A stretch of 64,000 nucleotides of DNA from an uncultured bacterium (GCA_963766885.1 CAVYBO010000001.1:132352-196351), one strand, 5' to 3'; positions 6,670 to 56,917 are shown, counted from the stretch's first letter. Notes: generated by a model not told the origin, from the letters alone. Numbers and translations: made by a program.

Positions 6670-6676
6670 CGGCATT

Positions 6677-7369: not shown

Positions 7370-7375
7370 TTTTGT

Positions 7376-9706: not shown

Positions 9707-9753
9707 TGCGACTATATGCTATCATTATAAGCACTTAATAAATATTTTCGTAA

Positions 9754-10176: not shown

Positions 10177-10183
10177 TTAATTT

Positions 10184-10822: not shown

Positions 10823-10824
10823 AA

Positions 10825-13298: not shown

Positions 13299-13358
13299 GG
13301 CAAAATGATACCATGAAATAATCTGATTTAAGCCAATAAGTTCAAGATATCATAAAAT

Positions 13359-15318: not shown

Positions 15319-15322
15319 ACTA

Positions 15323-17250: not shown

Positions 17251-17277
17251 TTTTATTTATGTGTTATAGTATAGCCC

Positions 17278-19731
17278 ATGAAAGTGGCATTTAAAAACAT
17301 TTTGAAATTTTTAATATTCGTCATTCCATTTCTGGTGCTTGTAGTTCCAGATGCAATGTTTTTTCCTTTTATAACCGGCAGGGCATTTCTGTTTAGGGTT
17401 GCTATTGATCTTGCCGTAGGAATTTATTTAGGACTGATTATTCTTGATAAAGATTCTCGGCCTAAAAATAATTTTCTCAACTGGTGCGTTTTCTCACTTG
17501 TTGTGGTGGCATTTGCAGCTGACTGCTTTGCATTTGTACCGTTAAAAGCCCTATGGAGCAATTATGAGAGAATGGAGGGATTTGCAACTATTGCTCATCT
17601 GGCTATTTTCTTTTTGATTTCTTCTACTATTTTTTCTGCCAAAGATTGGCGAAGATTTATTTATGTCTCTCTAGGGGTGGCAACTTTTATGGCCTACTAC
17701 TCGGGCATTCAGATGATTGGAGAAATTGGTATTGATCAAGGAAGTACAAGAATTGACGGTACTTTAGGAAACGCTGCATACTTAGCGATATTTTTTGCTT
17801 TCCACGCATTCTTTTTGCTTATGCTTTTGTTTGGCAAGCCTGGTAAAAAATTGAAAGGCATTGCGGAAAGCGTTGGCCTAGGCTCGTTGGCTTTTGTTGC
17901 TTTTTATATTTACAAAATGTCTGTATATAAACTTCATCCATCAGCAATCGGATGGTTGATGCTTGTGTTTGCCATAGCTCTTTCTGTTGTTTTGGCAATC
18001 CTCCGATATTTTGATTATGCTCCGGTAGACAAAAGAGAAAAAGTTGAAAAGATTGTTTCAACAGTTTTATATTTATTTGGCTTTGCGGTCTTTTCTTGGC
18101 TGGTTTATGAAACTCAAACCAGAGGCACAACACTCGGGCTTTTGGGTGGCCTTTTGGTTGCCTCAATTTACATTCTTGTAAGAGAAAAGCATGACAAAGC
18201 CATAAGAAAAATTTCTTGGGGCTATATTATTTTGCTTCTGGTTGTTGTTGGGGGATTTTTCATTATTAAAAACACTTCCTTTGTACAGAACAACCAAAGT
18301 CTGGATAGATTCGCTACAATTTCTTGGAGCGATTCAAGTAATCAAGCGAGGCAGTATATATGGCCAATGGCTGTCGAAGGTTCTTTTTCCTCAGTTAAGA
18401 CATCAATTATAGGTTGGGGACAAGAAGGATTTATTTATGTCTTTGCAAAATATTACGATCCTCGCCTTTGGAGTCAGGAGCCATGGTTTGACCGCGCACA
18501 CAACGAATTCTTAGATTGGCTAGTTGCGGGCGGACTGCTTGGATTCTTGGCCTACGTTTCAATTTACGTTGCCGCCGTAAGGATGGTTATTAAATCTCCG
18601 GAATTTCCAGAACAGGAAAAGGCCTTGATTATTGGGGCCATCGCCGCGTACGCATTTCATAATCTTTTTGTTTTTGACAATCTTTCAAGTTACATACTTT
18701 TCTTTACGCTGCTTGGTTTTATTATGAGTCGGCATCAAGGCGAGAGGGAATTGCATTCCGAAAAAGAAGAAAACCAAGCAAAAATATATCTTCCACTAGG
18801 ACTGGTTTTGGGAATCATTCTTGCTTTCTGGATAAATTTAAATCCTTATGAACAGAATATTACTTTGATCGACGCGCTTCGCCAGCTTCCGGCCCAAAAC
18901 GGGGTGCCGTATTCTTGCGTCAGCGTAACAGACAAAATTTCAAGCGACGGATCTGTGCAGGAAGTTTGCAACAATGCCGAGCCTACTTTGGATCTTTTCA
19001 AAAAAGCTCTTGCTTACAACACATTTGGCGAAGCGGAAACCAGGCAGTTTCTCTTGGAGACAGCTTCAAATGTTGATAGCGATCCAAATACATCCAATCA
19101 GTCCAAAGAAGACTTTGCGTTACTTGTTATTTCGGAATATCAAAAACAAATCAAGGAAAATCCTTATTTCGAAACCCCGTATTTTGATTTTGGCAGCTAT
19201 TTGGAGAGCATTGGCCAGTTTAATCAGGCCAAGACCGTGTTTGAGGCAGCAGTTAGTCTTTCTCCAACACGCCAGCTTCCTTATATGAAATTAGGAGAGA
19301 TTGATTTAGAGCAAAACGATATAAATGACGCAATAAGCTATTTCAAAAAGGCTTATGATTTGGATCACACATATCCTTTGGCGGAATCCGAATACGCCAT
19401 GAGTTTGGTTTACGGCAAGGATTTAAAGGATGCTCTGCCTTTGCTGGCGGATCTGCCTTACAAAGATGGTGGTATAACTCCTAACCTTGTTCAAATTCTT
19501 GGCCAGAGCGGCTACGGTTCTTATGCAGTTGCAATGCTTCAAAAAAGAATTTCAATTGCTCCACAAGATCAAAGCGCCTATGTTCTGCTTTCCGAGGTGT
19601 ATATTGCTCTCAAGGATCCTGCCGATTCAGCCAAGGTAATTAATTTACTTGAAGCAAAAAATCCAAAATTAGACACTGCAACACTGCAATATTTGGAAAC
19701 TTTGAGCTCAACTACTCCAAGCCAAGCTTAA
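17278..19731 (+). CDS. O-antigen ligase/polymerase-like (Wzy_C) membrane protein with C-terminal TPR domain
   Basis: An N-terminal polytopic region of about 500 aa carries the Wzy_C-type loop (…DRAHNEFLDWLVAGGLLGF…). The C-terminal roughly 250 aa are TPR-like repeats (…ISYFKKAYDLDHTYPLAESEYAMSLVY…). Confidence 0.65.
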   Translation: MKVAFKNILKFLIFVIPFLVLVVPDAMFFPFITGRAFLFRVAIDLAVGIYLGLIILDKDSRPKNNFLNWCVFSLVVVAFAADCFAFVPLKALWSNYERMEGFATIAHLAIFFLISSTIFSAKDWRRFIYVSLGVATFMAYYSGIQMIGEIGIDQGSTRIDGTLGNAAYLAIFFAFHAFFLLMLLFGKPGKKLKGIAESVGLGSLAFVAFYIYKMSVYKLHPSAIGWLMLVFAIALSVVLAILRYFDYAPVDKREKVEKIVSTVLYLFGFAVFSWLVYETQTRGTTLGLLGGLLVASIYILVREKHDKAIRKISWGYIILLLVVVGGFFIIKNTSFVQNNQSLDRFATISWSDSSNQARQYIWPMAVEGSFSSVKTSIIGWGQEGFIYVFAKYYDPRLWSQEPWFDRAHNEFLDWLVAGGLLGFLAYVSIYVAAVRMVIKSPEFPEQEKALIIGAIAAYAFHNLFVFDNLSSYILFFTLLGFIMSRHQGERELHSEKEENQAKIYLPLGLVLGIILAFWINLNPYEQNITLIDALRQLPAQNGVPYSCVSVTDKISSDGSVQEVCNNAEPTLDLFKKALAYNTFGEAETRQFLLETASNVDSDPNTSNQSKEDFALLVISEYQKQIKENPYFETPYFDFGSYLESIGQFNQAKTVFEAAVSLSPTRQLPYMKLGEIDLEQNDINDAISYFKKAYDLDHTYPLAESEYAMSLVYGKDLKDALPLLADLPYKDGGITPNLVQILGQSGYGSYAVAMLQKRISIAPQDQSAYVLLSEVYIALKDPADSAKVINLLEAKNPKLDTATLQYLETLSSTTPSQA

Positions 19732-36895: not shown

Positions 36896-38056
36896 ATGAT
36901 GACAGTGATTTTGCTCATTTATCTTTTTATTATGTTCTTTATCATATTCTTTACGATATTCCTGACATTTTTTTTAATTCTTCGATACAACCGTCGTTTA
37001 AAGGATAAAAAAAATAAAAAACATGAGCGAACTCTGGAGCGATACGAGGCTAACCCTGTCATAGCCCCGATTTCTTACAGAAAATGGGAAGACATGGGCA
37101 CATTTAATCCCGCTGCCATAAAAGACGACGAGGGATTTGTCCACCTGCTCTATCGCGCTGTTGGAAGCGATGGAGTGTCCACAATCGGCCATGCCAAAAG
37201 CCAGACTGAAGACGGATTAAAATTTAATAATAGAACAGCCTATCCAATATTTGTCTCAAGGCCGACAAGTTTCAAAGAAGACAATAAAAATAGTTTGGGA
37301 AATGCCTTGCAAATTTACAGTCCACACATGTATGCCTCTGGGGGTAGCTGGGGAGGAGCTGAAGATCCGCGAGCGGTGGTTATTGATGGTCGCGTTTACA
37401 TGACGTACACATCTTTTGACGGCTGGGAGTCTGTTCGAATTGCAGCCACATCAATTTCTATGGAAGATCTTAAGCAAGAGCGCTGGAATTGGAAGCAGCC
37501 GAGATTCATATCACCTCCTGGAGAAATAAATAAAAACTGGGTGCTTTTTCCAGAAAAAATAAACGGTAAATTTGCAGTGTTGCACAGCGTATCTCCGGAA
37601 ATAAAAATAGCTTATCTGGACAATCTAAATATTCAAGACAACAATTATATAGAGAGTTCAGCGCCATCCGGCGGCAGGGAGGGTAGCTGGGATAATTGGA
37701 TGCGCGGCGCAGGATCGCCGCCGATAAAGACGGTGCTCGGCTGGCTTGTTTTGTATCACGCTATGGACAAAAACGATCCAAACAAATACAAGCTCGGATG
37801 CATGGTCTTGGATCTTAAAAATCCAACCAAAATTCTTTACCGTTCTCCAACGCCGATAATGGAACCGGAAAAAGTTTATGAAAATGACTGGAAGCCCGGA
37901 GTGGTTTACGCTTCAGGAGCTTTGATTATTAAAGACGATCTTGTTGTATATTATGGAGGTGGCGATAAATATGTTTGCGTTGCCAAAACTCCACTCAAAC
38001 CGCTCTTAGCTTGGCTTGTAAATTATGGCCTGCCTGCGGAGGCAGGAAAAGTATAA
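36896..38056 (+). CDS. GH130-family (DUF377) beta-propeller glycosidase/phosphorylase-like protein with N-terminal TM anchor
   Basis: Motifs FNPAAI, YRAVGSDG, GAEDPR and YYGGGD, typical of the 5-bladed GH130 fold. The N-terminal 35 aa are hydrophobic. Confidence 0.55.
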   Translation: MMTVILLIYLFIMFFIIFFTIFLTFFLILRYNRRLKDKKNKKHERTLERYEANPVIAPISYRKWEDMGTFNPAAIKDDEGFVHLLYRAVGSDGVSTIGHAKSQTEDGLKFNNRTAYPIFVSRPTSFKEDNKNSLGNALQIYSPHMYASGGSWGGAEDPRAVVIDGRVYMTYTSFDGWESVRIAATSISMEDLKQERWNWKQPRFISPPGEINKNWVLFPEKINGKFAVLHSVSPEIKIAYLDNLNIQDNNYIESSAPSGGREGSWDNWMRGAGSPPIKTVLGWLVLYHAMDKNDPNKYKLGCMVLDLKNPTKILYRSPTPIMEPEKVYENDWKPGVVYASGALIIKDDLVVYYGGGDKYVCVAKTPLKPLLAWLVNYGLPAEAGKV

Positions 38057-38061
38057 AAATC

Positions 38062-39966
38062 ATGTTCACCTTAAATAGATCAAAACATAATCCGATTTTG
38101 TCCGCAGTAAAAGAGCATCCGTGGGAAGCGGAAGCAGCGTTCAACGGTTGCCCTATAGTTAAAGGAGATAAAACTTACATATTATACAGAGCAATGTCCG
38201 AGCCTGATCCGCTTCGGGAGCCGCATCTTGGCACCTCAGTTATTGGCATTGCGGATTCACGCGACGGCATTAATTTTGAAAACAGAAAAGCGATCTTTGG
38301 TCCGAGCGAAGAATATGACAAATTTGGCTGCGAAGATCCGAGGATTACAGAAATAGATGGAACATATTATATATTTTACACTGCGCTTAGCGGCTATCCG
38401 TTTTCTGCAGACAATATCAAAGTTGCTGTTGCGCTGAGTGATAATTTGGAATCAATAAAAGAAAAGCATCTGGTTACGCCGTTTAATGCTAAGGCCACGG
38501 CGCTTTTTCCAGAAAAAATAAACGGCAAGATGGCTGCGCTTGTGACTGTAAACACTGATAGAAGGCCTGCTGACATTTGCTATATGGAATTTGATAAGCC
38601 GGAAGACATTTGGTCGGAGGAATACTGGAAAAATTGGATGAACTCTGGATTGGATGCACATAAAATAAATCTGCGGCGGTTTGACAGCGATCAAGTGGAG
38701 CTCGGCGCTCCGCCAGTCAAAACAGACAAAGGTTGGCTAGTTGTTTATTCGCATATTCAGGATTACGGAGGATTAAATACGGTATTTGGAATTGAGGCTG
38801 TGCTATTGGATTTGGAAAATCCTAGGCGTATTGTAGGACGCACCAGAGGTCCATTTATGGTGCCTGATGAATATTATGAAAAAACAGGACAGGTGAGCAA
38901 TGTGGTTTTTCCTTCCGGAGCGCTGCTAAGAGGAGATAAATTGGAAATATATTACGGCGCAGCTGATACGCATTGCGCTGTGGCTTCGTTATATTTGGAT
39001 AATTTGATAGACAATATGCTTGATTCCAAAAAATCTCACTTCAAACGCTTTTCAGGAAATCCGATAATATCTCCAAGGCCGGGATTTGCCTGGGAAGCTG
39101 GAGGCACACTTAATCCAGCCGCTATTAATTTGAATGGCAAAACTCATATAATATACAGAGCAGCTTCGCCGAAAAATGTTTCGGTTCTTGGCTATGCTGT
39201 GAGCAGCGACGGATTTAATATCGATGAGCGCTTGAATGAGCCTGTATATTTACCGCGCGCAGATTTCGAATCAAAACCAGGGACTGATTCCAATTTCGGC
39301 TGCGAAGATCCGCGCATTGTTGTAATTGGCGATAAACTTTATATGACTTACACCGGATACAACTGCGTAACACCCAGAGTGGCAGTAACTTATATAGCAA
39401 TTGATGATTTTTTAAACAGGAGATGGAATATGTGGTCAGTGCCGAGCGCAATTACTCCGCCGAATATTCCAGACAAAGACGCGGTTATATTGCCGGAAGC
39501 GATAAATGGAAAGTATATGATAATCCACAGAGTGGGAGAGAGTATCTGCGCGGATTTTTTATCTTCGCTTGATTTTTCAAAGGAACAGATAAATAAATGC
39601 ATAGAAATAATCAATCCGCGTCCAGGAATGTGGGACAGTGTCAAGGTTGGCATTGCGGGACCGCCAATAAAAACGGATCTTGGCTGGCTTTCGCTTTATC
39701 ATGGAATTTCAAAAAACAAAAAATATCGTGTTGGGGCGCTTTTACTTGATCTGAATGATCCGACAATTGTAAAAGCCCGTACGGCTGTGCCGGTTTTTGA
39801 GCCGGAAGAAATTTATGAGAAGAACGGCTTGGTGCCGAATGTGGTTTTTCCATGCAGCTTTGTTGTGCGTGATAAAACAGCTTTCATATACTATGGCGCG
39901 GCAGACAGTGTAGTGGGTGTGGCCACAGTTGGAGTAGATGAACTTTTAAATATGCTTAGAACATAA
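38062..39966 (+). CDS. tandem double GH130-like beta-propeller protein
   Basis: Two successive GH130-like halves. Each has the motif set: first half NPIL…YRAMSEP…CEDPRITEI…YYGAAD; second half NPIISP…LNPAAI…YRAASP…CEDPRIVVI…YYGAAD. ATG 38062 directly follows the upstream stop. Confidence 0.55.
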   Translation: MFTLNRSKHNPILSAVKEHPWEAEAAFNGCPIVKGDKTYILYRAMSEPDPLREPHLGTSVIGIADSRDGINFENRKAIFGPSEEYDKFGCEDPRITEIDGTYYIFYTALSGYPFSADNIKVAVALSDNLESIKEKHLVTPFNAKATALFPEKINGKMAALVTVNTDRRPADICYMEFDKPEDIWSEEYWKNWMNSGLDAHKINLRRFDSDQVELGAPPVKTDKGWLVVYSHIQDYGGLNTVFGIEAVLLDLENPRRIVGRTRGPFMVPDEYYEKTGQVSNVVFPSGALLRGDKLEIYYGAADTHCAVASLYLDNLIDNMLDSKKSHFKRFSGNPIISPRPGFAWEAGGTLNPAAINLNGKTHIIYRAASPKNVSVLGYAVSSDGFNIDERLNEPVYLPRADFESKPGTDSNFGCEDPRIVVIGDKLYMTYTGYNCVTPRVAVTYIAIDDFLNRRWNMWSVPSAITPPNIPDKDAVILPEAINGKYMIIHRVGESICADFLSSLDFSKEQINKCIEIINPRPGMWDSVKVGIAGPPIKTDLGWLSLYHGISKNKKYRVGALLLDLNDPTIVKARTAVPVFEPEEIYEKNGLVPNVVFPCSFVVRDKTAFIYYGAADSVVGVATVGVDELLNMLRT

Positions 39967-49307: not shown

Positions 49308-50147
49308 ATGGCTAAACAAAAAACAAAGGCAAAAATTGAAGAAGAGGGAGATGAGAAAAAATACTATTTTATTGCCGGCCTTCCGCGCGCCGGATCAACT
49401 TTGCTTTGCAATATTCTGGCTCAAAATCCAAGATTTCTGACAACCGCAACTTCGGGGATCATGGATGTAATGTTTGGGGTCAGAAACACTTGGGACAACT
49501 TGATTGAATTCAAAGCCAATCCAAATCCTGATGCAAAGCTTCGCGTGCTTCGCGGAATTTTGGATTCATATTACGCAGATTCAGACAAGAGCGTGGTTTT
49601 TGATAAATGCCGCGGATGGCTTTCGCTTTTGGAAATGGCGGAATCAGTGCTTGGACACAAGGCAAAAGTTTTGGTGCCGGTTCGCGATATCCGAGATGTG
49701 CTTGCCAGCTTTGAAAAACTTTGGCGAGAAGCATCAAAGAGCAAGCAAATCGGGCAGGAGGGCGCAAATTATTTTGCGTTTCAAACCGTGGAAGGCAGAA
49801 CTGAAACCTGGCTTCGTCCGGACCAGCCGGTTGGATTGGCTTACAACAGAATCAAGGACGCAATCAACAGAGGCTACGCGGACAGAATGTTACTTGTGGA
49901 CTTTGAAGATTTGACGGCGCGGCCGGAACAGACCATGCAGGTGATTTATGAATTTTTGGGAGAAAAATTTTATCGGCACGATTTTGAGAATGTAAAGCAA
50001 GTGACTTTTGAGGATGATTCTGTTCACGGTATTCCAAATCTTCACACAATCAAATCAAAAGTGCGTCCGATGCCTCCTCAATGGCCGCTCATACTTGGCC
50101 CCTTTGCTGAAAAATACGGTCAGCTCAATTTTTGGAATAAAAAATAA
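49308..50147 (+). CDS. sulfotransferase family protein
   Basis: 5'-PSB P-loop-like GLPRAGSTLL and a 3'-PB-like VRDIRDVLAS, Sulfotransfer_3-type. Confidence 0.5.
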   Translation: MAKQKTKAKIEEEGDEKKYYFIAGLPRAGSTLLCNILAQNPRFLTTATSGIMDVMFGVRNTWDNLIEFKANPNPDAKLRVLRGILDSYYADSDKSVVFDKCRGWLSLLEMAESVLGHKAKVLVPVRDIRDVLASFEKLWREASKSKQIGQEGANYFAFQTVEGRTETWLRPDQPVGLAYNRIKDAINRGYADRMLLVDFEDLTARPEQTMQVIYEFLGEKFYRHDFENVKQVTFEDDSVHGIPNLHTIKSKVRPMPPQWPLILGPFAEKYGQLNFWNKK

Positions 50148-50150
50148 AAA

Positions 50151-51056
50151 ATGCCAAAGTATGCGGTATTTGTGATAAACGGGTTGCCAGAAAAAGATTT
50201 TTTGGGCACGGCCGTTATTGCTCAATACAAAAAAGAAAATCCAAATCAAAAAATAATTGTTTTGAGCCGCAATCCATATATTTGGATGCACAACACGGAT
50301 GTTTGGAGAATTTACGACAGCTCTCGAACCCAATATTTCCATGATGATTTTATTGCGGGTGGCCAGTCCAAAATTTTCGCGGAAGACCCATATATTTCAA
50401 CCGACTATATTTCACATGGTATGCATGTTATTGATGCTTGGGCCAAATTGATTGGTGTAGCCAAGCCGGAGCATAAGCCTAAGGTTTTTTTGACGCAGAG
50501 GGAATTTGAAGTCACAGAACGCCTGCTAGGGCAGTACAAGCCGTTTTGCATTATTTCCACAGAGGGTGAAGCTTTTCTGCCAAAAGGAGCGTCAACATGG
50601 GTCAAGAAAATACCCCGGCAATTAAGCGAATTTTTGGCTTCAGAAATGAAAAAAAGCGGTATTAATGTGCTTCACGCTATGCTTCCAAATGAGCAGCCTC
50701 TGCCGTTTTCAACACCAATAAATTTTGAGCCGAGAATTTTGATTGGAGCTCTTAAGGCTGCTGACGCAAGAATTTTGACGAATTCTTTTTTGGCTCACGC
50801 TTCTGCGGCTCTTGAAATTAATTCCACTGTAATTTATTCCGATGCATTGCCTCTGCAAACGGGTTATGAGATTAATTCAAATTTTTATCCAGAAAATTTG
50901 CCACCTCAGCAAAAAGATATTGTAGAAAATTATTATCCGGCGATTGATGTTGGCAATTTCCGCTCACTCCAAAGAGTTAACCTTGCTGGAACTTATAAAG
51001 TGGAAGCAATTTTGAAATCAACATTGGATCAAATAAAAAATAAAGCAAAAAATTAA
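50151..51056 (+). CDS. glycosyltransferase family 9-like (heptosyltransferase fold)
   Basis: N-terminal strand YAVFVINGLP…, …IIVLSRNPYIWMHN… and a C-terminal …HASAAL… region parallel the GT9 layout. Paralog of the next gene. Confidence 0.45.
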   Translation: MPKYAVFVINGLPEKDFLGTAVIAQYKKENPNQKIIVLSRNPYIWMHNTDVWRIYDSSRTQYFHDDFIAGGQSKIFAEDPYISTDYISHGMHVIDAWAKLIGVAKPEHKPKVFLTQREFEVTERLLGQYKPFCIISTEGEAFLPKGASTWVKKIPRQLSEFLASEMKKSGINVLHAMLPNEQPLPFSTPINFEPRILIGALKAADARILTNSFLAHASAALEINSTVIYSDALPLQTGYEINSNFYPENLPPQQKDIVENYYPAIDVGNFRSLQRVNLAGTYKVEAILKSTLDQIKNKAKN

Positions 51057-51060
51057 ACAG

Positions 51061-51942
51061 ATGAGAAAAAATATTTTATTTATGGTCGCAGGAGGAGTCG
51101 GCAAAAATATTTTGGCTACTGCTGTGGTGCGGGCAATCAACAAAAAATATCCGAGCCATAATATTATTGTTTTGACGCCTTATGGATTTGTCTGGAAAAA
51201 CAACCCGCGAGTCTCGCAGATTCTCAATCCAGAAGAAGAGCCGGATCTTTATGGGAAATACATCAAAGACCACGATACGATTATAATGTTTCAAGAGCCG
51301 TATATGTCTGATGATTTTTTTAACAGACGAAAGCATCTGACTGAAATCTGGTGTCAGCTTTGCAGCGTGTCATCAGACAGATTTGAGCCCGAGCTTTATT
51401 ATCCCAAAAAAGAATTGGAAGAAATAAAAAAGAAAATAGGAATTTCTTCGTCGCCGATTTTTATGATTCAAACTAGCGGCGGACACGAAAGCCAAAAATA
51501 TCCGATTTCTTGGACGCGAGATTTGCCGCTCAATATTGCAGAACAAGTTGTAGAAAAAATGAATCAGAAAGGATACAGAACGGTGCATATCAGAAGAGAA
51601 AATCAATATGCGCTTCCAAACACTTTGCATTTGGATCTTACAACCAGAGAAATGATCGGCTCTGTTTGTTTTGCTGACAAGCTGCTCTTAATAGATTCTG
51701 TGGCAATGCACGCCGCTGCGGCATTTGGCAAGAAAGCCGTTGTCACATGGGTTGGCAATCCGAGCACAATTTTTGGCTACGGAATGCACAAAAATATTTA
51801 TACAAAAGTTCCGATGAGCTTCAGGCACTTCCCCAACGCTTTTTTGGATAAATACGATATTACAGGCAACATAACGGAGTGCCCGTTTGATACAAATGAT
51901 CTTTTTGACGCTGATGAATTGGTAAATCTCCTCGATCAATAA
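51061..51942 (+). CDS. glycosyltransferase family 9-like (heptosyltransferase fold)
   Basis: ILFMVAGGVGKNILATAVV…IIVLTPYGFVWKNNP… and LLIDSVAMHAAAAFGKKAVVTWVGNPSTIFGYG parallel WaaC/WaaF (…VDTGLSHLTAALDRP…YGPTDP…). Confidence 0.55.
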   Translation: MRKNILFMVAGGVGKNILATAVVRAINKKYPSHNIIVLTPYGFVWKNNPRVSQILNPEEEPDLYGKYIKDHDTIIMFQEPYMSDDFFNRRKHLTEIWCQLCSVSSDRFEPELYYPKKELEEIKKKIGISSSPIFMIQTSGGHESQKYPISWTRDLPLNIAEQVVEKMNQKGYRTVHIRRENQYALPNTLHLDLTTREMIGSVCFADKLLLIDSVAMHAAAAFGKKAVVTWVGNPSTIFGYGMHKNIYTKVPMSFRHFPNAFLDKYDITGNITECPFDTNDLFDADELVNLLDQ

Positions 51943-52015
51943 TTCCCAAAGACTTTTCCCCATATTTCGCACACATTTCCTGCAAATAAATGCTAAAATA
52001 ACCTCGTTCTCTAAT

Positions 52016-55000
52016 ATGAAAAACAGTCCAACTTTCAAATCTAAGATTGTCAAACTCTCTTTCTCCGCTGTTATCATCACCTTGGTAGCAAAAGGTGTTG
52101 CTATTCCTCTCTCCAAAGAATACTTTTCATACCTTTTTGAAAGAAAAGATCAATCTATCGCTTTACTTACCAATTTCCCAATCATTCCAGGTAGGGAAGG
52201 TGGAAAAAACACTCTGACAGTCCAGAGCAAGGAATCTCCTCTAACCACAGGCCAACTAATTGGCCTATTAACCTTTGCCAACTCTGCATATGCAGAGAAT
52301 ATTAATTCAACAAATAATCCAGGATTTCTCTCCAGCATCACATCCTTCTACAAACCACTCTTCACCCAATCTATTAATACATATTCAGATATTGGTAACG
52401 GATTTTTGAATCAAACATCAAATGTTGCTGCTCCGGGAGGAATCTTTAATACTATCTGGTCATCAATTTCCAATCTCTTCTCTCCACAACCGACTCCAAC
52501 TGTTATCACTTCCACTGTTACTCCACCACCTGTTGATCACATCCCAGAGCATGTCATTCTTCCAGCGGCAACTACAACAATCAACACTACAAACGTCACA
52601 GACACCACAGACAACAATCAAACCACAGTAGTCTCTCTTCCTCCACCTCTACCAACACAGACAGTTGTCTATCAACCAACAAACAATACTCCGTATCTAT
52701 TACAACTCTCTTCAGAAATTTCTTCCATATCAAATCAAATCGCAAACATCAAACCAGTTGTAAATGATTACACAACAATTGGCGGAGGCGGAGGAGCAGG
52801 TCCAAGTATTATTGGAGTAACAGATTCAATTACACAAAACTCAAACAATATTTCAAATCTTCAGTCTGGAAACTTTTCCGGAGACATCACTGCTTCTGGA
52901 ACCGGTACTTCCACCTTTGCTGGTGCTGTCACTGCTACAGCTTTCTATGGAGATGGATCACACCTAACTGGAATTAGCGCAGGATCTTCTTTCTCAACCT
53001 CTACAACCAGGGGAGTGTTTTCTGCAACTGGACCTCTGGCATATTCCACGACGACCGGAGTGATCTCTATGACTGCAGGAACAAACGGTCAAATACTCCA
53101 GACTGTTTCAGGCACTCCAACTTGGGTGGCAACATCGAGTCTTGGAATTTCTGCAGGTCTTACCAACAATGCTACGGGAAATTCTGCTATTGCTTTAGGT
53201 TGCGGCAGTCTTGCTCCAAGTAGCGATTCGTCGGCGTTTGGATATGAAAATAATGCTTGCTGTGGTTATGCGTCGGCTATTGGTTCATACAACACCGCTT
53301 CTGGTTATCGCTCTGGCGCTTTTGGATATGGTAATACTGCTTCAGGATGTCATTCCTCAGCTTCTGGTTATTACAACCACGCTGCAGATAATTTCGCTTC
53401 AGCTTTTGGTAGTTGTAATAGTGCTTCAGGAAACTACTCCTCCGCTTTTGGTTATCACAACTCGGCATCGGCGTGTTGCTCTTCCGTCTTCGGTTCCAAC
53501 ATCTGCAACACCACCGCATGTTCCGTAGAAATCGGAGCCGACAACGCAGACAAACTTCAAATCTCCTCAGCTGGCGGAGTGAACTTTGTCACTGCATCAA
53601 GTACAGCAGGATTCTGTGTTAATGGAGTGAAAGTGGGAGGGTCATCTTTCTCAACTTCATGCCTTAACTGTCTTTCACAAAATGCAGTTGGGTACGAGAA
53701 CTGCGTAGGTACACTTGGATTGAACGCTTCTACTTTTGGAGGATATAACAGTGCTTCTGGATTTGTTTCTTCAGCTTTTGGATACAATAACAGTGCTTCT
53801 GGATGCAAATCTAATGCTTTTGGTTTTAGTAATAGTGCTTCTGCCTACTATTCACAAGCCTTTGGTGCTAACAACACTGCTTGTGGTGTATGTTCTTCCG
53901 TTTTTGGTGTCAATAACACCGCCTCTGGCAACTACTCCTCCGCTTTCGGTTCTAATAACACCGCCTCTGGATACTGTTCCATCGCCTCCGGTTTCTACAA
54001 CACCGCTTCTGGTTATTGTTCCTCTGCTTTTGGCTATCGCAACACCGCCTCTTGCAACAACGCCTCTGCTTTTGGCTATCGCAACACCGCCTCTTGCAAC
54101 AACGCCTCTGCTTTTGGCGATTGCAACATCGCCTGTGGCAACTACTCCAATGCCTCTGGCTATCGCAACACTGCTTCTGGTCAATACTCCTCTGCCTTTG
54201 GTAACTACAACACCGCCTCTTGCAACAACGCCTCCGCCTCTGGTAACTACAACACCGCCTCTGGCATCTGCTCCTCCGCCTTTGGTAACTCCAACACCGC
54301 CTCTGGCAACTACTCCTCTGCCTCTGGTTACTCCAACTCCGCCTCTGGTCAACAATCCTCCGTCTTTGGCTATCGCAACTCCGCCTCTTGCAACAACGCC
54401 TCCGCCTTTGGTAACTCCAACACCACCTCTGGCAACTACTCCTCCGCCTTTGGTAACTCCAACACCGCCTGTGGCTACTACTCCTCTGCCTCTGGTTACT
54501 CCAACACCACCTCTGGCAACAACGCCTCTGCCTTTGGTTACAACAATACTGCCTCTGGCAACAACGCCTCCGCCTTTGGTTACAACAATACTGCCTCTGG
54601 CATCTCCTCCTCTGCTTCTGGTTATTGCAACACTGCCTCTGGCAACTACTCCTCCGCTTCTGGTTATTGCAACATCGCCTGTGGATGTTATTCCTCCTCT
54701 GCCTTTGGTTACAACAATACTGCCTCTGGCCCCGCCTCCTCTGCCTTTGGTTACAACAATACTGCCTCTGGCATCTCCTCCTCTGCTTCTGGTTATTGCA
54801 ACATCGCCTGTGGCAACTACTCCTCTGCCTTCGGCTCCTGCCTGACAAACAGTACAGCCTGCTCCACAATGCTCGGCTACTGCAACGCCTGGATGAGAAT
54901 CAATCCAGACAAATCCGTCTGCTTCTCAAACGGTGGTTGTATCTCTTCCACTGGTGTAGGCTCATTCGCATCAGACAGAAACATCAAGGACAACTTCACC

Positions 55001-55804
55001 CCAATCAATCAACAAACCATATTAAACTCAATAGACAATCTACCTATCACACAGTGGAACTACATAGCAGATGCAAGCAATACTCCATACATTGGACCAG
55101 TTGCCCAAGACTTCTATGCAGCATTCGGAGGTCTAGGAGGCTCATCTACCACTATCCCTGAGTTTGAACCTGGAGCTATTGCTCTTGTGGGTGTACAGGC
55201 ATTGTCACAGAATTTGGCTTCGACGACGGCACAAGTTCAAACTATCCAAACAGAACTTAATGTTCTGACAGACACATCTACCTCAACCCCTTCATCAGAT
55301 ACTCTCTCTTCAATGACAAGCTGGTTCTCTGGAGTAGGTACAGATATCCAAAACGGTATTACTTATCTTTCTAGTCTCTTTGTTGAGAAGTTGACTGTGG
55401 GATCGGCAAGTAAGCCCACTGGTATTACTTTGTATGACAAGACAACCGGTGAACCGTATTGTTTGGAAATAAATAATGGTACCCCTGAGGCAAAAGCTGG
55501 GGATTGTGACGATGACAGCTCATCGAATGTTTCTTCAGGACAAAGCGGAGGAGGTTCTTCATCAGGATCTAGTGACAATACAAGCACAAGTACAGATTCA
55601 GATTCAACATCTACAAGTGACACATCAGGAGACAATTCAGTTTCTTCTTCAACCCCTTCATCTGACACATCAACATCTACAGATTCTGTAAGTGGTTCAG
55701 GTAATTCAAATTCAACCTCAAGTTCCACGCCAATAAGTAGCACACCAAGCAGTAGTTCTGGTGATTCATCAGATTCGTCAGGTACAAGTACTTCATCCTC
55801 TTAA
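52016..55804 (+). CDS. giant surface fibre protein: N-terminal anchor, about 80 YadA-head-like (Hep_Hag-type) heptad repeats, C-terminal peptidase S74 intramolecular chaperone domain, Ser/Thr-rich tail
   Basis: 1262 aa. The N-terminus is hydrophobic (MKNSPTFKSKIVKLSFSAVIITLVAKG). Residues 390-945 or so are 7-aa repeats [ST]A[FS]G[YN]xN / TASGNxS arranged as 14-aa units. …SFASDRNIKDNFTPINQ…IGPVAQDFYAAFGG… matches the S74 autoproteolytic chaperone motif (SDxRxKxNI). The final 150 aa or so are S/T/D low complexity. Confidence 0.7.
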   Translation: MKNSPTFKSKIVKLSFSAVIITLVAKGVAIPLSKEYFSYLFERKDQSIALLTNFPIIPGREGGKNTLTVQSKESPLTTGQLIGLLTFANSAYAENINSTNNPGFLSSITSFYKPLFTQSINTYSDIGNGFLNQTSNVAAPGGIFNTIWSSISNLFSPQPTPTVITSTVTPPPVDHIPEHVILPAATTTINTTNVTDTTDNNQTTVVSLPPPLPTQTVVYQPTNNTPYLLQLSSEISSISNQIANIKPVVNDYTTIGGGGGAGPSIIGVTDSITQNSNNISNLQSGNFSGDITASGTGTSTFAGAVTATAFYGDGSHLTGISAGSSFSTSTTRGVFSATGPLAYSTTTGVISMTAGTNGQILQTVSGTPTWVATSSLGISAGLTNNATGNSAIALGCGSLAPSSDSSAFGYENNACCGYASAIGSYNTASGYRSGAFGYGNTASGCHSSASGYYNHAADNFASAFGSCNSASGNYSSAFGYHNSASACCSSVFGSNICNTTACSVEIGADNADKLQISSAGGVNFVTASSTAGFCVNGVKVGGSSFSTSCLNCLSQNAVGYENCVGTLGLNASTFGGYNSASGFVSSAFGYNNSASGCKSNAFGFSNSASAYYSQAFGANNTACGVCSSVFGVNNTASGNYSSAFGSNNTASGYCSIASGFYNTASGYCSSAFGYRNTASCNNASAFGYRNTASCNNASAFGDCNIACGNYSNASGYRNTASGQYSSAFGNYNTASCNNASASGNYNTASGICSSAFGNSNTASGNYSSASGYSNSASGQQSSVFGYRNSASCNNASAFGNSNTTSGNYSSAFGNSNTACGYYSSASGYSNTTSGNNASAFGYNNTASGNNASAFGYNNTASGISSSASGYCNTASGNYSSASGYCNIACGCYSSSAFGYNNTASGPASSAFGYNNTASGISSSASGYCNIACGNYSSAFGSCLTNSTACSTMLGYCNAWMRINPDKSVCFSNGGCISSTGVGSFASDRNIKDNFTPINQQTILNSIDNLPITQWNYIADASNTPYIGPVAQDFYAAFGGLGGSSTTIPEFEPGAIALVGVQALSQNLASTTAQVQTIQTELNVLTDTSTSTPSSDTLSSMTSWFSGVGTDIQNGITYLSSLFVEKLTVGSASKPTGITLYDKTTGEPYCLEINNGTPEAKAGDCDDDSSSNVSSGQSGGGSSSGSSDNTSTSTDSDSTSTSDTSGDNSVSSSTPSSDTSTSTDSVSGSGNSNSTSSSTPISSTPSSSSGDSSDSSGTSTSSS
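53170..54850 (+). repeat. coding tandem repeats (21/42-bp period) encoding heptad beta-roll units
   Basis: Near-identical units such as ctctgcttttggctatcgcaacaccgcctcttgcaacaacgc recur. This causes long spurious ORFs in all other frames (e.g. 53736..54845 plus, 53952..54869 minus). Confidence 0.8.
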
Positions 55805-55825
55805 TTTTTTTGGTATAATTTCTGT

Positions 55826-56917
55826 ATGACTAAAACAAAAATCGCCATCAACGGCGCAGGGCGAATCGGAAGAGCTTTTTATAAACTAGCATCAAAAATA
55901 GAAGATGTTGAGATTGTTGCCATAAACGATTTGGCTGATATCGGCAACATTGCATATCTGCTCAAATACGACAGTGTATATGGCCGAAGCGATCTAGATG
56001 TTAAAGTCGGTGATGATAAAAAAACTCTTTTTATAAACGGAAAAGCTACAAAATATTTAAGTGAAAAAGATCCTGCAAATCTGCCCTGGAAAGATTTGGC
56101 TGTGGACGTGGTACTTGAATCAACAGGGCTTTTTACCAGCCGTGAAAAAGCAGAATTGCACATCAAGGCCGGAGCCAAAAGAGTGGTTATTACAGCGCCT
56201 TCCAAAGACGCAGCTGGCGCTCCGCAAGCCGCAACAATTTTGATGGGTCTTAACGAAGACAGATTCAAAACTTGTCCTGTCACTTCAAACGCATCTTGTA
56301 CAACTAACGCTGCAAGCCCTTTGATGGCGATTTTGGACGAAGCTATTGGAATTGAAAAAGCTGTTTTGAGCACTGTTCACGGATACACCGCATCGCAATC
56401 AATTGTTGATGGTCCGGCCAAAAAAGATTGGAAAGAGGGAAGAGCCGGTGCGCACAATATTGTGCCAACTTCCACAGGAGCTGCAATTGCTGTAACTCTT
56501 GCTCTGCCGCAACTCAAAGACAAATTTGACGGTGTGTCGCTTCGAGTTCCTGTGATTGCAGGATCAATTGTTGATGTGACTTTTATTTCCAAAAGATCGA
56601 CAACAGTTGAAGAAATAAACAATGCACTAAAAGCCGCAGCAACAAATCCAAGATGGCAGAAAGTTTTTTCTGTAACGGATGAGCCTCTTGTTTCATCAGA
56701 CATAATCGGCTCAAATTTTGCATCAATTGCTGATTTAGGATTGACTAGAGTTGTGGATGGAAATTTGGTAAAAGTTTTTGCTTGGTATGACAACGAAATG
56801 GGGTACACCCACGCACTGCTTGTGCACGTACTTGCAGCGGCCGCTGTGCCTTTTGAAATACCTGTTTCTAATCCAGAGCAACCAAAAGACGAAGTAACCA
56901 CTCCAAAATATGCCTAA
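55826..56917 (+). CDS. gap: type I glyceraldehyde-3-phosphate dehydrogenase
   Basis: NGAGRIGR Rossmann motif. Active-site ASCTTNA(A)SP. 363 aa. Confidence 0.9.
   Translation: MTKTKIAINGAGRIGRAFYKLASKIEDVEIVAINDLADIGNIAYLLKYDSVYGRSDLDVKVGDDKKTLFINGKATKYLSEKDPANLPWKDLAVDVVLESTGLFTSREKAELHIKAGAKRVVITAPSKDAAGAPQAATILMGLNEDRFKTCPVTSNASCTTNAASPLMAILDEAIGIEKAVLSTVHGYTASQSIVDGPAKKDWKEGRAGAHNIVPTSTGAAIAVTLALPQLKDKFDGVSLRVPVIAGSIVDVTFISKRSTTVEEINNALKAAATNPRWQKVFSVTDEPLVSSDIIGSNFASIADLGLTRVVDGNLVKVFAWYDNEMGYTHALLVHVLAAAAVPFEIPVSNPEQPKDEVTTPKYA

What the first reader, a model, noticed from the sequence alone, without database searches (positions are those of the whole stretch)
52016..55804. Giant surface fibre protein with about 80 YadA-head-like heptad repeats, a phage-tailspike-type S74 autoproteolytic chaperone domain, and an S/T-rich tail
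The repeat region is built from SA(F/S)GY(N/R)NTASGN(Y/N)S units with a 7/14-residue period. This is the Hep_Hag/YadA-head type that forms left-handed beta-rolls in trimeric adhesins and some phage fibres.

It is followed by a clear peptidase S74 intramolecular chaperone motif (SDRNIKDNF…IGPVAQDF…). That domain normally trimerises the fibre and then cleaves itself off. Unusually, a further 150 residues or so of S/T/D low complexity follow the S74 domain. The N-terminus looks like a membrane anchor rather than an autotransporter.

In a probable episymbiotic CPR cell this is a strong candidate for a host-attachment fibre or a major surface layer. The repeats are near-identical at DNA level, which points to recent expansion and possible length variation.
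Basis: partly seen in the sequence, partly recalled or inferred. Interest (0 to 1): 0.7.

Follow-up and report, generated by a model that had tools for sequence, protein, structure and literature searches.

The report
Paceibacteria surface fibre with self-cleaving chaperone
This is a real 1262-residue gene for a cell-surface fibre of an ultrasmall (CPR/Paceibacteria) bacterium. It joins an adhesin-type beta-roll shaft to a phage-type self-cleaving folding domain, belongs to a conserved but unstudied family, and sits next to two sugar-transferase genes.

Summary
**Observation.** The ORF (52016-55804, +, 1262 aa) is real. It carries:
- one N-terminal hydrophobic segment;
- about 71 YadA-head-type heptads (Pfam PF05658, E=2e-18; PDB BpaC, CbpF and UspA1 heads);
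- a Peptidase_S74 chaperone domain (PF13884, E=4.7e-9) with an invariant S986/D987/K991 motif.

- The repeats are not near-identical. The 42-nt units average 68% identity and the longest exact repeat is 61 nt.
- The sequence after S74 is not 150 residues of low complexity. It is a helix, then a conserved roughly 67-residue two-cysteine module that no Pfam model covers, then a 96-residue Ser/Thr tail. A profile of the module hits 1747 protein clusters.

**Context.**
- Orthologous loci in at least four other Patescibacteria contigs hold the same architecture.
- All of them also hold an adjacent pair of paralogous GT9-fold glycosyltransferases. Four of the five loci have a sulfotransferase.
- The flanking genes are housekeeping genes, so this is not a prophage. 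There is no YadA anchor, so it is not an autotransporter.

**Best reading.** A Sec-exported, N-terminally tethered trimeric fibre. The C-terminal chaperone nucleates folding and then cuts itself off. The closest studied analogue is the Bdellovibrio MAT fibre family. Host attachment and glycosylation of the fibre are inferences.

**Verdict.** A new variant of a known kind, of moderate to high interest.

The parts
52016..52114 (+). N-terminal Sec signal or signal-anchor, residues 1-33. A Lys-rich n-region is followed by the hydrophobic stretch LSFSAVIITLVAKGVAIPL.
   Evidence: This is the only Kyte-Doolittle-19 peak above 1.6 in the protein, at residues 11-33. The same feature is present in homologues P0018, P0020, P0021, P0023, P0024 and P0026.
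52115..52477 (+). Conserved N-proximal region, residues 34-154. Candidate cell-proximal or tethering domain; no known family.
   Evidence: The conservation with P0018 over this stretch is read by eye from the BLASTP alignment; the whole N-terminal segment is 52% identical over 383 columns. No Pfam or NCBIfam hit.
52478..52690 (+). Pro/Thr-rich linker, residues 155-225. Probably extended and wall-spanning.
   Evidence: Composition and sequence. This segment is divergent between the window protein and P0018, while the flanking segments are conserved.
52691..53176 (+). Short helix, a Gly run, and tail-fibre-like motifs (FYGDGSHLTGI, STSTTRGVFS...), residues 226-387.
   Evidence: Sequence. The same motifs recur in P0018, P0021, P0023, P0024 and L007.
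53177..53533 (+). YadA-head-like repeat block A, about 17 heptads, residues 388-506.
   Evidence: Seven-residue register. Direct-repeat families D2 and D3.
53534..53710 (+). Neck-like connector, residues 507-565 (VEIGADNADKLQISSAGGVNFVT...FCVNGVKVGG).
   Evidence: The same connector recurs, sometimes several times, between repeat blocks in P0019, P0020, P0022 and P0026.
53711..54850 (+). YadA-head-like repeat block B, 27 units of 14 residues (consensus NTASGxxSSAFGxx), Cys-rich, residues 566-945.
   Evidence: Pfam PF05658. PDB BpaC, CbpF and UspA1 heads. TRF period 42, 21.8 copies, 79% matches. Per-position composition.
54851..54970 (+). Pre-chaperone beta segment with 5 cysteines (C949, C956, C969, C975 and nearby), residues 946-985. 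Predicted distal end of the mature fibre.
   Evidence: Conserved 'CLxNSTAxSTMxGYCNAWxRI' in P0001, P0018, P0023, P0024 and P0026. Predicted strands with pLDDT 83-86.
54971..55285 (+). Peptidase_S74 intramolecular chaperone, residues 986-1090. Core is 986-1038 and the long helix is about 1052-1087. Catalytic Ser986 is at nt 54971-54973 and Lys991 at nt 54986-54988.
55313..55513 (+). Post-chaperone module, residues 1100-1166. An amphipathic helix is followed by a beta-hairpin with invariant C1149 and C1164. Not annotated in any library searched.
   Evidence: Alignment A5. The profile hits 1747 cluster representatives at E<=1e-3 and 468 at E<=1e-10. The hairpin region has pLDDT 78-87. No Pfam or NCBIfam hit.
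55514..55804 (+). Ser/Thr/Asp/Gly low-complexity tail (residues 1167-1262) and the stop codon.
   Evidence: Composition is S 49%, T 17%, G 10%, D 10%. Homologues have equivalent S/T- or P/E/T-rich tails. None of 150 module-bearing proteins has a hydrophobic C-terminal segment, and one has LPxTG.
50151..51942 (+). Two adjacent paralogous GT9-fold glycosyltransferase-like genes (50151-51056, 301 aa; 51061-51942, 293 aa). They lie next to the fibre gene in all five loci examined.
   Evidence: The paralogues are 26% identical, E=7e-29. AF2 model pLDDT 90.5. Foldseek top hits are GT9 3tov (E=3e-12), WaaF 1psw, TibC 4rap and WaaC. Synteny is seen in L001, L003, L004 and L007.
49308..50147 (+). Sulfotransferase gene, linked to the fibre locus in four of five loci.
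   Evidence: Pfam Sulfotransfer_1/3. Also present in L001, L003 and L004.

Best explanation
This is a chromosomal gene of a Paceibacteria (CPR) bacterium that encodes a trimeric cell-surface fibre.

**Proposed mechanism**
1. The N-terminal signal or signal-anchor takes the chain through Sec. The N-terminal end stays at the cell, either through the uncleaved hydrophobic segment or through the conserved N-proximal region. A Pro/Thr linker spans the wall.
2. Outside the cell, three chains are brought into register by the C-terminal S74 intramolecular chaperone. This nucleates C-to-N folding of the pre-chaperone beta segment and of the two YadA-head-type beta-roll blocks. The result is a long, Cys-rich shaft.
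3. Once the trimer has formed, the Ser986/Lys991 dyad cuts the chain at Ser986. This releases a fragment of about 277 residues (chaperone, post-chaperone module and Ser/Thr tail) and exposes the distal tip.
4. The fibre then mediates contact with another surface, most plausibly the host bacterium.
5. The adjacent pair of cytoplasmic GT9-fold enzymes, and the sulfotransferase, probably modify the fibre or a glycan that works with it.

**Shown:** the domain content, the catalytic motif, family conservation, synteny and the non-phage context.

**Inferred:** export, trimerisation, cleavage, orientation, target and glycosylation.
For: **Domains**
- PF05658 and PF13884 both score above their thresholds.
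- Solved YadA-type heads match residues 584-933.
- The SDxxxK motif is invariant.
- The model's best structural match by two methods is an S74-type ICA domain. The family profile also finds it by sequence.
- There is a single N-terminal hydrophobic segment.

**Family**
- At least 15 clusters combine PF13884 with PF05658.
- Close family members share the N-terminal segment, tail-fibre-like motifs, Cys-rich repeats, S74, the module and a low-complexity tail.

**Cellular, not viral**
- The neighbours are GatB, Obg and MYG1 upstream and GAPDH, RpiB and Rpe downstream.
- The same housekeeping synteny is seen in L004 and L007.

**Precedent**
- Bdellovibrio MAT fibres have a signal peptide, a conserved N-terminal domain, a trimeric fibre and a C-terminal S74 domain with SDxxxK. 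Self-cleavage was demonstrated experimentally and abolished by Ser-to-Ala mutation (PMC10769870).

**Neighbouring enzymes**
- The GT9 pair sits next to the fibre gene in five of five loci and has a GT9 fold.
- TibC-type GT9 relatives heptosylate serines in adhesin beta-helices (PMC4358343).
Against: - There is no expression, localisation or cleavage data.
- Typical S74 proteins end 107-126 residues after the catalytic Ser. This family continues for 240-290 residues.
- In related proteins the part after the chaperone carries folded Ig-like domains. That is odd for a fragment that is simply discarded.
- Anchor versus cleaved signal peptide is unresolved.
- The GT9 link rests on gene adjacency only, and the enzymes lack the size of BAHT enzymes and their known add-ons.
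- The exact repeat number in 54026-54830 has not been checked against reads. An independent k-mer assembly breaks at 54050.
Confidence: 0.6

Rival explanations
1. The S74 domain acts as a trimerisation-dependent release switch, as in MyRF, or is not cleaved at all. In that case the conserved post-chaperone module and tail are the functional end (wall-associated or distal tip) rather than waste. The fibre would then be shed from the cell, or held by its C-terminal part.
For: - The module is conserved in 1747 clusters and always lies after a chaperone-type domain.
- In some relatives it is followed by Bact_surface_Ig-like domains.
- P/E/T/S-rich tails resemble the wall-spanning segments of Gram-positive surface proteins (own knowledge).
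- Homologues have AxA-like signal-peptidase motifs, which suggests the N-terminus may not be an anchor.
- The best structural match is MyRF ICA. In MyRF the chaperone stays with the membrane-bound C-terminal part (own knowledge).
Against: - None of 150 module-bearing proteins has a hydrophobic C-terminal segment, and only one has LPxTG.
- The catalytic Ser, Asp and Lys are strictly conserved, which argues that cleavage happens.
- No wall-binding domain was recognised.
Confidence: 0.17
2. It is a surface coat or secreted matrix component, for example a protective or S-layer-like fibre carpet, possibly heavily glycosylated or sulfated. It would not be a specific host-attachment adhesin.
For: - The first 20 kb of the window holds a large surface-glycan gene cluster.
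- A GT9 pair and a sulfotransferase lie next to the gene.
- The repeats are Ser-rich and the tail is Ser/Thr-rich.
- There is no recognisable ligand-binding tip domain.
Against: - YadA-type heads in solved relatives are adhesive (own knowledge of the proteins matched).
- The studied cellular S74 fibres (MAT) act in prey recognition.
- The architecture is a fibre, not a lattice-forming S-layer protein.
Confidence: 0.15
3. It is a phage or prophage tail-fibre gene, that is, a virion component sitting in the chromosome.
For: - S74 is typical of phage tailspikes and tail fibres, and NCBI names relatives 'tail fiber domain-containing protein'.
- The FxGDGSxLTGI-type motifs are tail-fibre-like (own knowledge).
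- Weak PHROG hits.
Against: - The flanks are housekeeping genes, with conserved synteny in at least four other genomes.
- The N-terminus has a Sec-type hydrophobic segment.
- The PHROG hits cover only the repeats and belong to families of unknown function.
- Viral contigs and cultured phages match only the S74 core, not the module.
- No tRNA gene and no phage-type protein family among the ORFs of 200 aa or more scanned with Pfam.
Confidence: 0.04
4. The repeat block, and so the length of the protein, is an assembly collapse or expansion artefact.
For: - An independent Logan (k-mer) contig from run ERR11630394 stops at window position 54050, inside a pair of near-identical 42-nt units.
- The homologue in L001 is cut by a contig end within its repeats.
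Against: - That contig is 100% identical over 50138-54050.
- The units average 68% identity, and no 77-mer is repeated.
- The frame stays open for 3.8 kb and runs into a conserved C-terminus.
- Homologues have comparable or longer repeat arrays.
- At most a few units in 54026-54830 could be miscounted.
Confidence: 0.04

Closest known systems
Bdellovibrio bacteriovorus MAT (mosaic adhesive trimer) fibres, S74 subgroup, e.g. Bd3182 (PMC10769870)
   Same: - A chromosomal, cell-surface fibre of a bacterium that lives on other bacteria, not a virion part.
- An N-terminal export signal followed by a conserved cell-proximal region.
- A fibre of about 1000 residues.
- A C-terminal S74 chaperone/protease with the SDxxxK motif.
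- In MAT, self-cleavage and surface location were shown by experiment.
   Different: - The shaft here is a Cys-rich YadA-head beta-roll, not the intertwined beta-helix described for Bd3182.
- The organism is a CPR bacterium. That it has a single membrane is assumed from knowledge of the group, not tested here.
- About 175 extra residues follow the chaperone (module and low-complexity tail).
- A GT9 pair and a sulfotransferase are linked to the gene.
- Homology of the N-terminal domains was not tested.
Phage tailspike and tail-fibre proteins with a C-terminal intramolecular chaperone (K1F endosialidase, T5 pb1; Pfam PF13884 / MEROPS S74)
   Same: - The S74 domain scores above threshold and has the Ser-x4-Lys dyad.
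- It lies directly after a trimeric beta-structure.
- Tail-fibre-like motifs occur in the N-terminal third.
   Different: - It is not in a phage context.
- It has a Sec signal instead of a virion-attachment domain.
- It has YadA-type repeats.
- It has an extra post-chaperone module that was not found after S74 in viral contigs or cultured phages.
Type Vc trimeric autotransporter adhesins (YadA, UspA1, BpaC, Fusobacterium CbpF)
   Same: - The head repeats are recognisably homologous: PF05658, with PDB E-values down to 9e-19.
- There is a neck-like connector between the repeat blocks.
   Different: - No YadA_anchor beta-barrel and no YadA_stalk.
- The polarity is reversed: the anchor or signal is at the N-terminus and the trimerising element is at the C-terminus.
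- Cysteine content is 3.1% here. The median is 0.035% among the S74-less proteins in the same hit list, most of which are classical TAAs.
MyRF (myelin regulatory factor) ICA domain, PDB 7dc3
   Same: - It is the best structural and profile match to the chaperone region.
- It has the same S74-type fold and dyad.
   Different: - It is a eukaryotic membrane-bound transcription factor, and the similarity is limited to the ICA/S74 domain.
TibC/AAH autotransporter heptosyltransferases (BAHT; PMC4358343) with TibA/AIDA-I
   Same: - A GT9-related GT-B enzyme is encoded next to a Ser-rich beta-helical adhesin gene.
- TibC is among the top fold matches of the 293-aa neighbour (E=3e-9).
- TibC modifies serines in the adhesin repeats.
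   Different: - The neighbours are about 300 aa, so they are too short to hold the N-terminal beta-barrel in addition to the catalytic domain. The beta-hairpin thumb and four-Cys iron finger were not looked for.
- The best match is a generic GT9 enzyme (3tov).
- The acceptor and donor are unknown.
- No ADP-heptose pathway gene was seen in the window.

Membership tests
Peptidase S74 / C-terminal intramolecular chaperone domain (PF13884) | Match to the family profile above the curated threshold | tested here: met
   PF13884 scores 36.8 bits against a cut-off of 22, E=4.7e-9, residues 986-1038.
Peptidase S74 / C-terminal intramolecular chaperone domain (PF13884) | Catalytic Ser-Lys dyad in an SDxxxK motif | tested here: met
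   S986-D987-R-N-I-K991. The S, D and K are invariant in 18 aligned sequences. The motif definition is taken from PMC10769870.
Peptidase S74 / C-terminal intramolecular chaperone domain (PF13884) | S74/ICA fold | tested here: inconclusive
Peptidase S74 / C-terminal intramolecular chaperone domain (PF13884) | Autoproteolytic release after trimerisation | not testable with these tools
   This needs expression of the wild type and the S986A/K991A mutants.
Peptidase S74 / C-terminal intramolecular chaperone domain (PF13884) | The chaperone forms the extreme C-terminus (about 110-150 residues after the Ser) | tested here: not met
   277 residues follow S986. Non-CPR relatives end 107-126 residues after the Ser.
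Type Vc trimeric autotransporter adhesin | C-terminal YadA_anchor beta-barrel (PF03895) | tested here: not met
   No hit at E<=1. The classical hits carry PF03895, and this protein does not.
Type Vc trimeric autotransporter adhesin | YadA_head / Hep_Hag repeats | tested here: met
   PF05658, E=2e-18. PDB head domains match.
Type Vc trimeric autotransporter adhesin | YadA_stalk / coiled-coil stalk (PF05662) | tested here: not met
   No hit.
Bdellovibrio MAT superfamily | Signal peptide followed by a conserved beta-rich N-terminal domain of about 130 aa | not tested
   An N-terminal hydrophobic segment and a conserved region of about 120 aa exist. No MAT N-terminal sequence was available for comparison.
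Bdellovibrio MAT superfamily | Long trimeric fibre ending in S74 (13 of 21 members) with SDxxxK | tested here: met
   The trimeric state itself is inferred.
Phage or prophage tail fibre | Located among phage structural or morphogenesis genes | tested here: not met
   The neighbours are GatB, Obg, MYG1, a sulfotransferase, GT9-like genes, GAPDH, RpiB and Rpe. The synteny is conserved in L004 and L007.
BAHT (TibC/AAH) heptosyltransferases, for the two neighbouring genes | GT9-like GT-B catalytic fold | tested here: met
   Model pLDDT 90.5. Hits are 3tov (E=3e-12), 1psw, 4rap (E=3e-9) and 2h1h.
BAHT (TibC/AAH) heptosyltransferases, for the two neighbouring genes | N-terminal beta-barrel, beta-hairpin thumb and four-Cys iron finger (PMC4358343) | tested here: inconclusive
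   The proteins are 293 and 301 aa, against 371-390 residues for the TibC chains listed, which argues against an extra N-terminal barrel. The features are defined. The thumb and iron finger were not searched for, and the TibC match covers only about 264 aligned columns.

The most novel reading that the evidence does not exclude
The roughly 67-residue two-cysteine module and the low-complexity tail that follow the chaperone form a previously undescribed C-terminal cassette. It is used by more than 1,700 clusters of large proteins (up to 6,480 aa). Among the 79 genome loci listed in the scan of species-representative genomes, only the three Patescibacteria loci cover it.

In this reading the cassette has its own function, for example transient tethering to the wall or quality control. 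S74 cleavage would then be a regulated maturation or release step for a whole class of CPR host-interaction fibres. These fibres would be glycosylated in the cytoplasm by dedicated GT9-fold enzymes, as TibC does for autotransporters.
Probability: 0.2. Interest if true: 0.8.

Novelty: new variant of a known kind. Interest (0 to 1): 0.58.

Why it matters
How CPR/Patescibacteria cells recognise and hold on to their hosts is largely unknown. The papers found here deal with type IV pili. No paper in the library linked Patescibacteria to endosialidase or S74-type fibres.

This locus gives a concrete, conserved candidate:
- a fibre family built like the prey-recognition fibres of Bdellovibrio, but with an adhesin-type, cysteine-rich beta-roll shaft;
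- a widespread, unannotated C-terminal module;
- a linked pair of GT9-fold enzymes and a sulfotransferase.

Each part can be tested directly by self-cleavage assays, trimer structures and glycoproteomics. The module profile is also a handle for finding such proteins in metagenomes.

Tried and rejected
- **Exact look-ups:** the fibre and the GAPDH protein were not found in the assembly index. The genome was reached instead through the 293-aa neighbour (P0138 and L005).
- **Downstream assembly check:** the Logan contig carrying RpiB (L006) starts inside GAPDH, so it does not test the 3' half of the repeat array.
- **RNA genes:** the Rfam and tRNA scans of the window found nothing.
- **Promoters and terminators:** the counts were at chance level and uninformative.
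- **Cluster look-up:** it gave almost no names.
- **Structure job on locus-derived homologues:** The job was redone with database homologues.
- **Viral scan with the module alignment:** The scan with the whole C-terminal alignment matched only S74 cores. Cultured phages gave one S74-core match.
- **Rejected, autotransporter:** there is no anchor domain.
- **Rejected, prophage tail fibre:** the context is housekeeping genes.
- **Rejected, antifreeze or ice-binding protein:** the LbR_Ice_bind hit scores 26 bits, below its cut-off of 30, and lies within the repeat region (residues 694-785).
- **Rejected, overlapping ORFs:** the long ORFs in other frames at 53736-54845 (+) and 53952-54869 (-) lie entirely inside the repeat block and are probably by-products of it.
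- **Rejected, C-terminal membrane or sortase anchoring:** none of 150 module-bearing proteins has a hydrophobic C-terminus.

Full report

The ORF 52016..55804 (+) exists as described: 1262 codons with an ATG start.

- *Repeats.* Pfam finds YadA_head (PF05658, E=2e-18, 9 stretches). A sequence search of the PDB matches residues of about 584-933 to solved YadA-type heads: BpaC 7o23 (E=9e-19), Fusobacterium CbpF 9u93 (E=8e-18), a second surface protein 9gh4, and UspA1 3pr7.
- *Chaperone.* Pfam finds Peptidase_S74 (PF13884, 36.8 bits against a cut-off of 22) at residues 986-1038.
- *Repeat count.* In register, the repeats form two blocks. Block A (residues 388-506) has about 17 heptads. Block B (residues 566-945) has 27 units of 14 residues with the consensus N-T-A-S-G-x-x-S-S-A-F-G-x-x.
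- *Connector.* The blocks are separated by a neck-like connector (residues 507-565). It recurs between repeat blocks in homologues.
- *Cysteines.* The protein has 39 cysteines, 37 of them in the repeat, connector and pre-chaperone regions. The S74-bearing relatives listed have a median of 2.0% Cys (0.24-3.57%). The S74-less proteins in the same hit list, most of which are classical YadA-type adhesins, have a median of 0.035%.

**2.

- *DNA repeats.* The DNA repeats are not near-identical.
  - The 42-nt units average 68% pairwise identity, with a maximum of 95%. Only eight pairs reach 90%.
  - The longest exact repeat is 61 nt, and no 77-mer occurs twice.
  - TRF reports 79% matches at period 42 and 80% at a higher-order period of 168.
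  - This is an old, diverged array with a few local duplications. It is not a recently expanded one.
- *C-terminus.* The sequence after the S74 core is not 150 residues of low complexity. It consists of:
  - the helical remainder of the chaperone, up to about residue 1090;
  - a short linker;
  - a conserved module at residues 1100-1166, made of a helix and a beta-hairpin with invariant C1149 and C1164;
  - a 96-residue tail that is 49% Ser and 17% Thr.

**3. Is it an assembly artefact?**

- An independent Logan contig from run ERR11630394 (L005) is 100% identical to window 50138-54050.
- It ends at 54050, exactly where two adjacent 42-nt units are nearly the same. So the 5' 2 kb of the gene and its upstream neighbours are confirmed. 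The break is what a k-mer assembler does at a local duplication.
- The 3' part of the array could not be checked independently.
- The unbroken frame, the conserved C-terminus that it runs into, and homologues with similar or longer arrays make an ORF-level artefact very unlikely. A miscount of a few units remains possible.

**4. Whose gene is it, and is it phage?**

- *Window content.* The window is cellular. It holds Mur ligases, MurB, SecA, a large glycan-synthesis cluster and ABC transporters.
- *Immediate flanks.* Upstream lie MYG1, Obg, a Sua5-like gene, GatB, a sulfotransferase and two unknown genes of about 300 aa. Downstream lie GAPDH, RpiB and Rpe.
- *Orthologous loci.* L004 (JGI metagenome) has MYG1-Obg-GatB-sulfotransferase, the pair of 300-aa genes, and the fibre. 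L007, named 'Candidatus Paceibacteria bacterium', has the fibre, a GT4 gene, the pair, GAPDH and RpiB. Its GAPDH is 66% identical to the window's. L001 and L003 (GCA_964627085.1) also share the fibre, the pair and a sulfotransferase.
- *Names.* Named relatives are Patescibacteria, Paceibacteria, Vogelbacteria and Taylorbacteria.
- *Phage signals.* No phage-type protein family was hit among the ORFs of 200 aa or more scanned with Pfam. The PHROG hits cover only the repeats and belong to families of unknown function.
- *Conclusion.* This is a chromosomal gene of a Paceibacteria-type CPR bacterium, in a locus conserved across genomes.

**5. The family**

- *Breadth.* A full-length search found at least 15 protein clusters that combine PF13884 with PF05658.
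- *Close members.* These are P0018-P0024, P0026, P0027 and the ORFs in L001 and L007. They share the whole plan:
  - an N-terminal hydrophobic segment;
  - a Pro/Thr-rich stretch;
  - tail-fibre-like motifs (FYGDGSHLTGI, STSTTRG.FS);
  - Cys-rich 14-residue repeats, with connectors in some;
  - a conserved 'CLxNSTAxSTM.GYCNAW' pre-chaperone segment;
  - S74, the module, and a low-complexity tail.
- *Closest relative.* P0018 (1557 aa) comes from the same sequencing run.
  - Its N-terminal region is 52% identical over 383 aligned columns.
  - Its C-terminal region is 49% identical over 490 columns.
  - It has a different middle section of about 600 residues and fewer repeats.
  - So the family is modular: the ends are conserved and the shafts are variable, as in phage fibres and Bdellovibrio MAT proteins.
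- *S74 distribution.* The S74 subtype itself is very widespread. A scan of species-representative genomes gave 598 confirmed loci. The 79 distinct loci listed include Verrucomicrobia, Acidobacteria, Bacteroidetes, Deinococcales and CPR. Among those 79, only three Patescibacteria loci extend over the module.

**6. The chaperone**

- S986, D987 and K991 are invariant in an 18-sequence alignment. This matches the SDxxxK motif that defines active S74 domains (PMC10769870).
- An AF2 model of residues 940-1170 is moderate overall (pLDDT 67.7) but has pLDDT 72-90 over the S74 core.
- The family profile finds the same entry and a phage tail-fibre protein, 8jov, by sequence.
The structural support is modest, however, and only a monomer was modelled.

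**7. The post-chaperone module (a new observation)**

- *Length after the Ser.* Ordinary S74 proteins in the hit list end 107-126 residues after the catalytic Ser. This family continues for 240-290 residues.
- *Distribution.* A profile of the 72-position module was searched against 1.84 billion cluster representatives. It finds 1747 proteins at E<=1e-3 and 468 at E<=1e-10. The best 150 range from 101 to 6480 aa.
- *Position.* In the 108 of the top hits where the module could be located by pattern, all but one have 44-248 residues after it; in one it ends the protein.
- *What precedes it.* Of the top 141 hits, 76 have an S74 core, in most cases about 95-130 residues upstream. Among hits my HMM missed, Pfam finds divergent S74 domains in five (P0185, P0203, P0213, P0222 and P0228). 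It also finds a sub-threshold Peptidase_G2 autoproteolytic chaperone domain in one, P0221.
- *What follows it.* A P/T/S/E/D-rich tail follows. In some proteins a Bact_surface_Ig-like domain follows as well.
- *No C-terminal anchor.* None of 150 module-bearing proteins has a hydrophobic C-terminal segment, and only one has LPxTG.
- *Not annotated, not viral.* No Pfam or NCBIfam model covers the module. It was not seen after S74 in viral contigs or cultured phages.
- *Function.* Unknown. I favour 'an enlarged chaperone fragment that is cut off'. The conservation, and the folded domains downstream in relatives, keep a functional role open.

**8. The neighbours (a new observation)**

- The two genes directly upstream (50151-51056 and 51061-51942) are paralogues (26% identity, E=7e-29) with no Pfam hit.
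- Using 27 database homologues and the window's own paralogue (29 rows in all), all of them unannotated, AF2 gives a confident model (pLDDT 90.5).
- Its top PDB matches are all GT9 enzymes:
  - a Veillonella GT9 enzyme, 3tov (E=3e-12);
  - WaaF, 1psw;
  - the autotransporter heptosyltransferase TibC, 4rap (E=3e-9);
  - WaaC.
- The pair lies next to the fibre gene in all five loci. A sulfotransferase is present in four, and a GT4 gene in two.
- As I recall, CPR bacteria have no LPS core, which is the classical GT9 acceptor.
- TibC-type GT9 relatives heptosylate serines in the beta-helix repeats of adhesins (PMC4358343).
- A fibre-modifying role is therefore an attractive hypothesis. It rests on adjacency and fold only. 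The proteins are too short to hold TibC's N-terminal barrel in addition to the catalytic domain, and the thumb and iron finger were not looked for.

**9. Most likely mechanism**

- *Export (inferred).* The single N-terminal hydrophobic segment directs Sec export.
- *Tethering (inferred).* The N-terminal end is held at the cell. The Pro/Thr linker and the tail-fibre-like segment lead into two YadA-type beta-roll blocks.
- *Folding and cleavage (inferred from family knowledge and the MAT experiments).* The C-terminal S74 domain trimerises, templates folding of the shaft from the C-terminal end, and then cuts at Ser986. This releases a fragment of about 277 residues.
[quoted passage not shown] My recollection of T5 pb1 and MyRF puts the cut just before the Ser.
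- *Target (inferred).* The mature distal end would be the Cys-rich segment at residues 946-985. The target is most plausibly the host cell surface.
- *Unresolved.* Whether the N-terminal segment is an anchor or a cleaved signal peptide is open. Homologues show AKA|S-type motifs after it, and the window protein has ...VAKGVA|IPLS.

**10. Comparison with known systems**

- It works most like the S74 subgroup of Bdellovibrio MAT fibres.
- It passes the sequence tests for S74 membership but not the 'chaperone is the extreme C-terminus' feature.
- It shares the head repeats of trimeric autotransporters but fails their defining anchor and stalk tests.
- It is not a phage tail fibre by context.
- I found no paper connecting Patescibacteria with S74 or endosialidase-type fibres. 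The only paper that mentions both Peptidase_S74 and YadA concerns polinton-like viruses of protists.

**11. Verdict**

- The repeat-dynamics claim is rejected, and the description of the C-terminus is corrected.
- The protein is a new variant of a known kind: a cellular S74-matured surface fibre.
- Three features are worth following up: the Cys-rich YadA-type shaft, the widespread unannotated post-chaperone module, and the conserved GT9 pair with its sulfotransferase.
- Interest is 0.58. Confidence in the general mechanism is 0.6.

Noticed in passing
window 55313-55513 (fibre residues 1100-1166): A conserved, unannotated module of about 67 residues (a helix, then a beta-hairpin with two invariant Cys) follows the S74 chaperone. 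Its profile hits 1747 cluster representatives; the best 150 range from 101 to 6480 aa. Where the module could be located it lies near the C-terminus, and more than half of the top hits have an S74 core upstream.
   Followed up: yes
window 50151-51056 and 51061-51942: Two paralogous genes of about 300 aa with no Pfam hit have a confident GT9 glycosyltransferase fold (top matches 3tov, WaaF, TibC and WaaC). They sit next to the fibre gene in all five loci examined.
   Followed up: yes
window 49308-50147: A sulfotransferase gene is linked to the fibre and GT9 locus here and in L001, L003 and L004. This suggests sulfated surface glycans or glycoproteins.
   Followed up: partly
L003 10001-14398 (P0019) and P0020: Two homologous fibres carry an intein (Pfam Intein_splicing/PT-HINT; sequence 'CIAAETRF...VAHN') inserted in the N-terminal third, just before the repeat region.
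   Followed up: no
window 54026-54109; L005 end: An independent Logan contig of run ERR11630394 is identical to window 50138-54050 and stops at 54050, inside two near-identical adjacent 42-nt units. The unit count downstream has not been verified against reads.
   Followed up: partly
window 52001-56000: The fibre gene has reversed GC skew (-0.18 to -0.23, against a mostly positive skew elsewhere) and raised GC content (0.43-0.47). The consensus repeat units are C-rich, which probably explains this. The repeats also create long spurious ORFs in other frames (53736-54845 + and 53952-54869 -).
   Followed up: partly
window 326-19731: A large surface-glycan gene cluster lies next to Mur ligases and MurB. 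It holds six GT4-type (Glycos_transf_1) glycosyltransferases, one GT2, two PMT_2-type glycosyltransferases, a polysaccharide deacetylase, methyltransferases, a Wzx-type flippase and an 817-aa Wzy_C/O-antigen-ligase-like protein with TPR repeats.
   Followed up: partly
L002 (P0018, 1557 aa; run ERR11630394): A second fibre from the same sequencing run shares the N-terminal region (52% identity) and the C-terminal region (49% identity) with the window protein, but has a different middle section of about 600 residues. It is either a paralogue in the same genome or the orthologue of a co-occurring relative.
   Followed up: partly
L004 7426-8056: In the orthologous locus a MazE/Fic toxin-antitoxin pair is inserted between the sulfotransferase and the GT9 pair.
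   Followed up: no
L009 1353-8960: A 2535-aa ORF in a Candidatus Vogelbacteria contig ends in the same S74-plus-module cassette. This shows that the cassette also serves much larger proteins.
   Followed up: no
window 36896-39966: Two adjacent GH130 (beta-1,4-mannooligosaccharide phosphorylase-like) genes, one of them 663 aa with two matched stretches to the GH130 profile.
   Followed up: no
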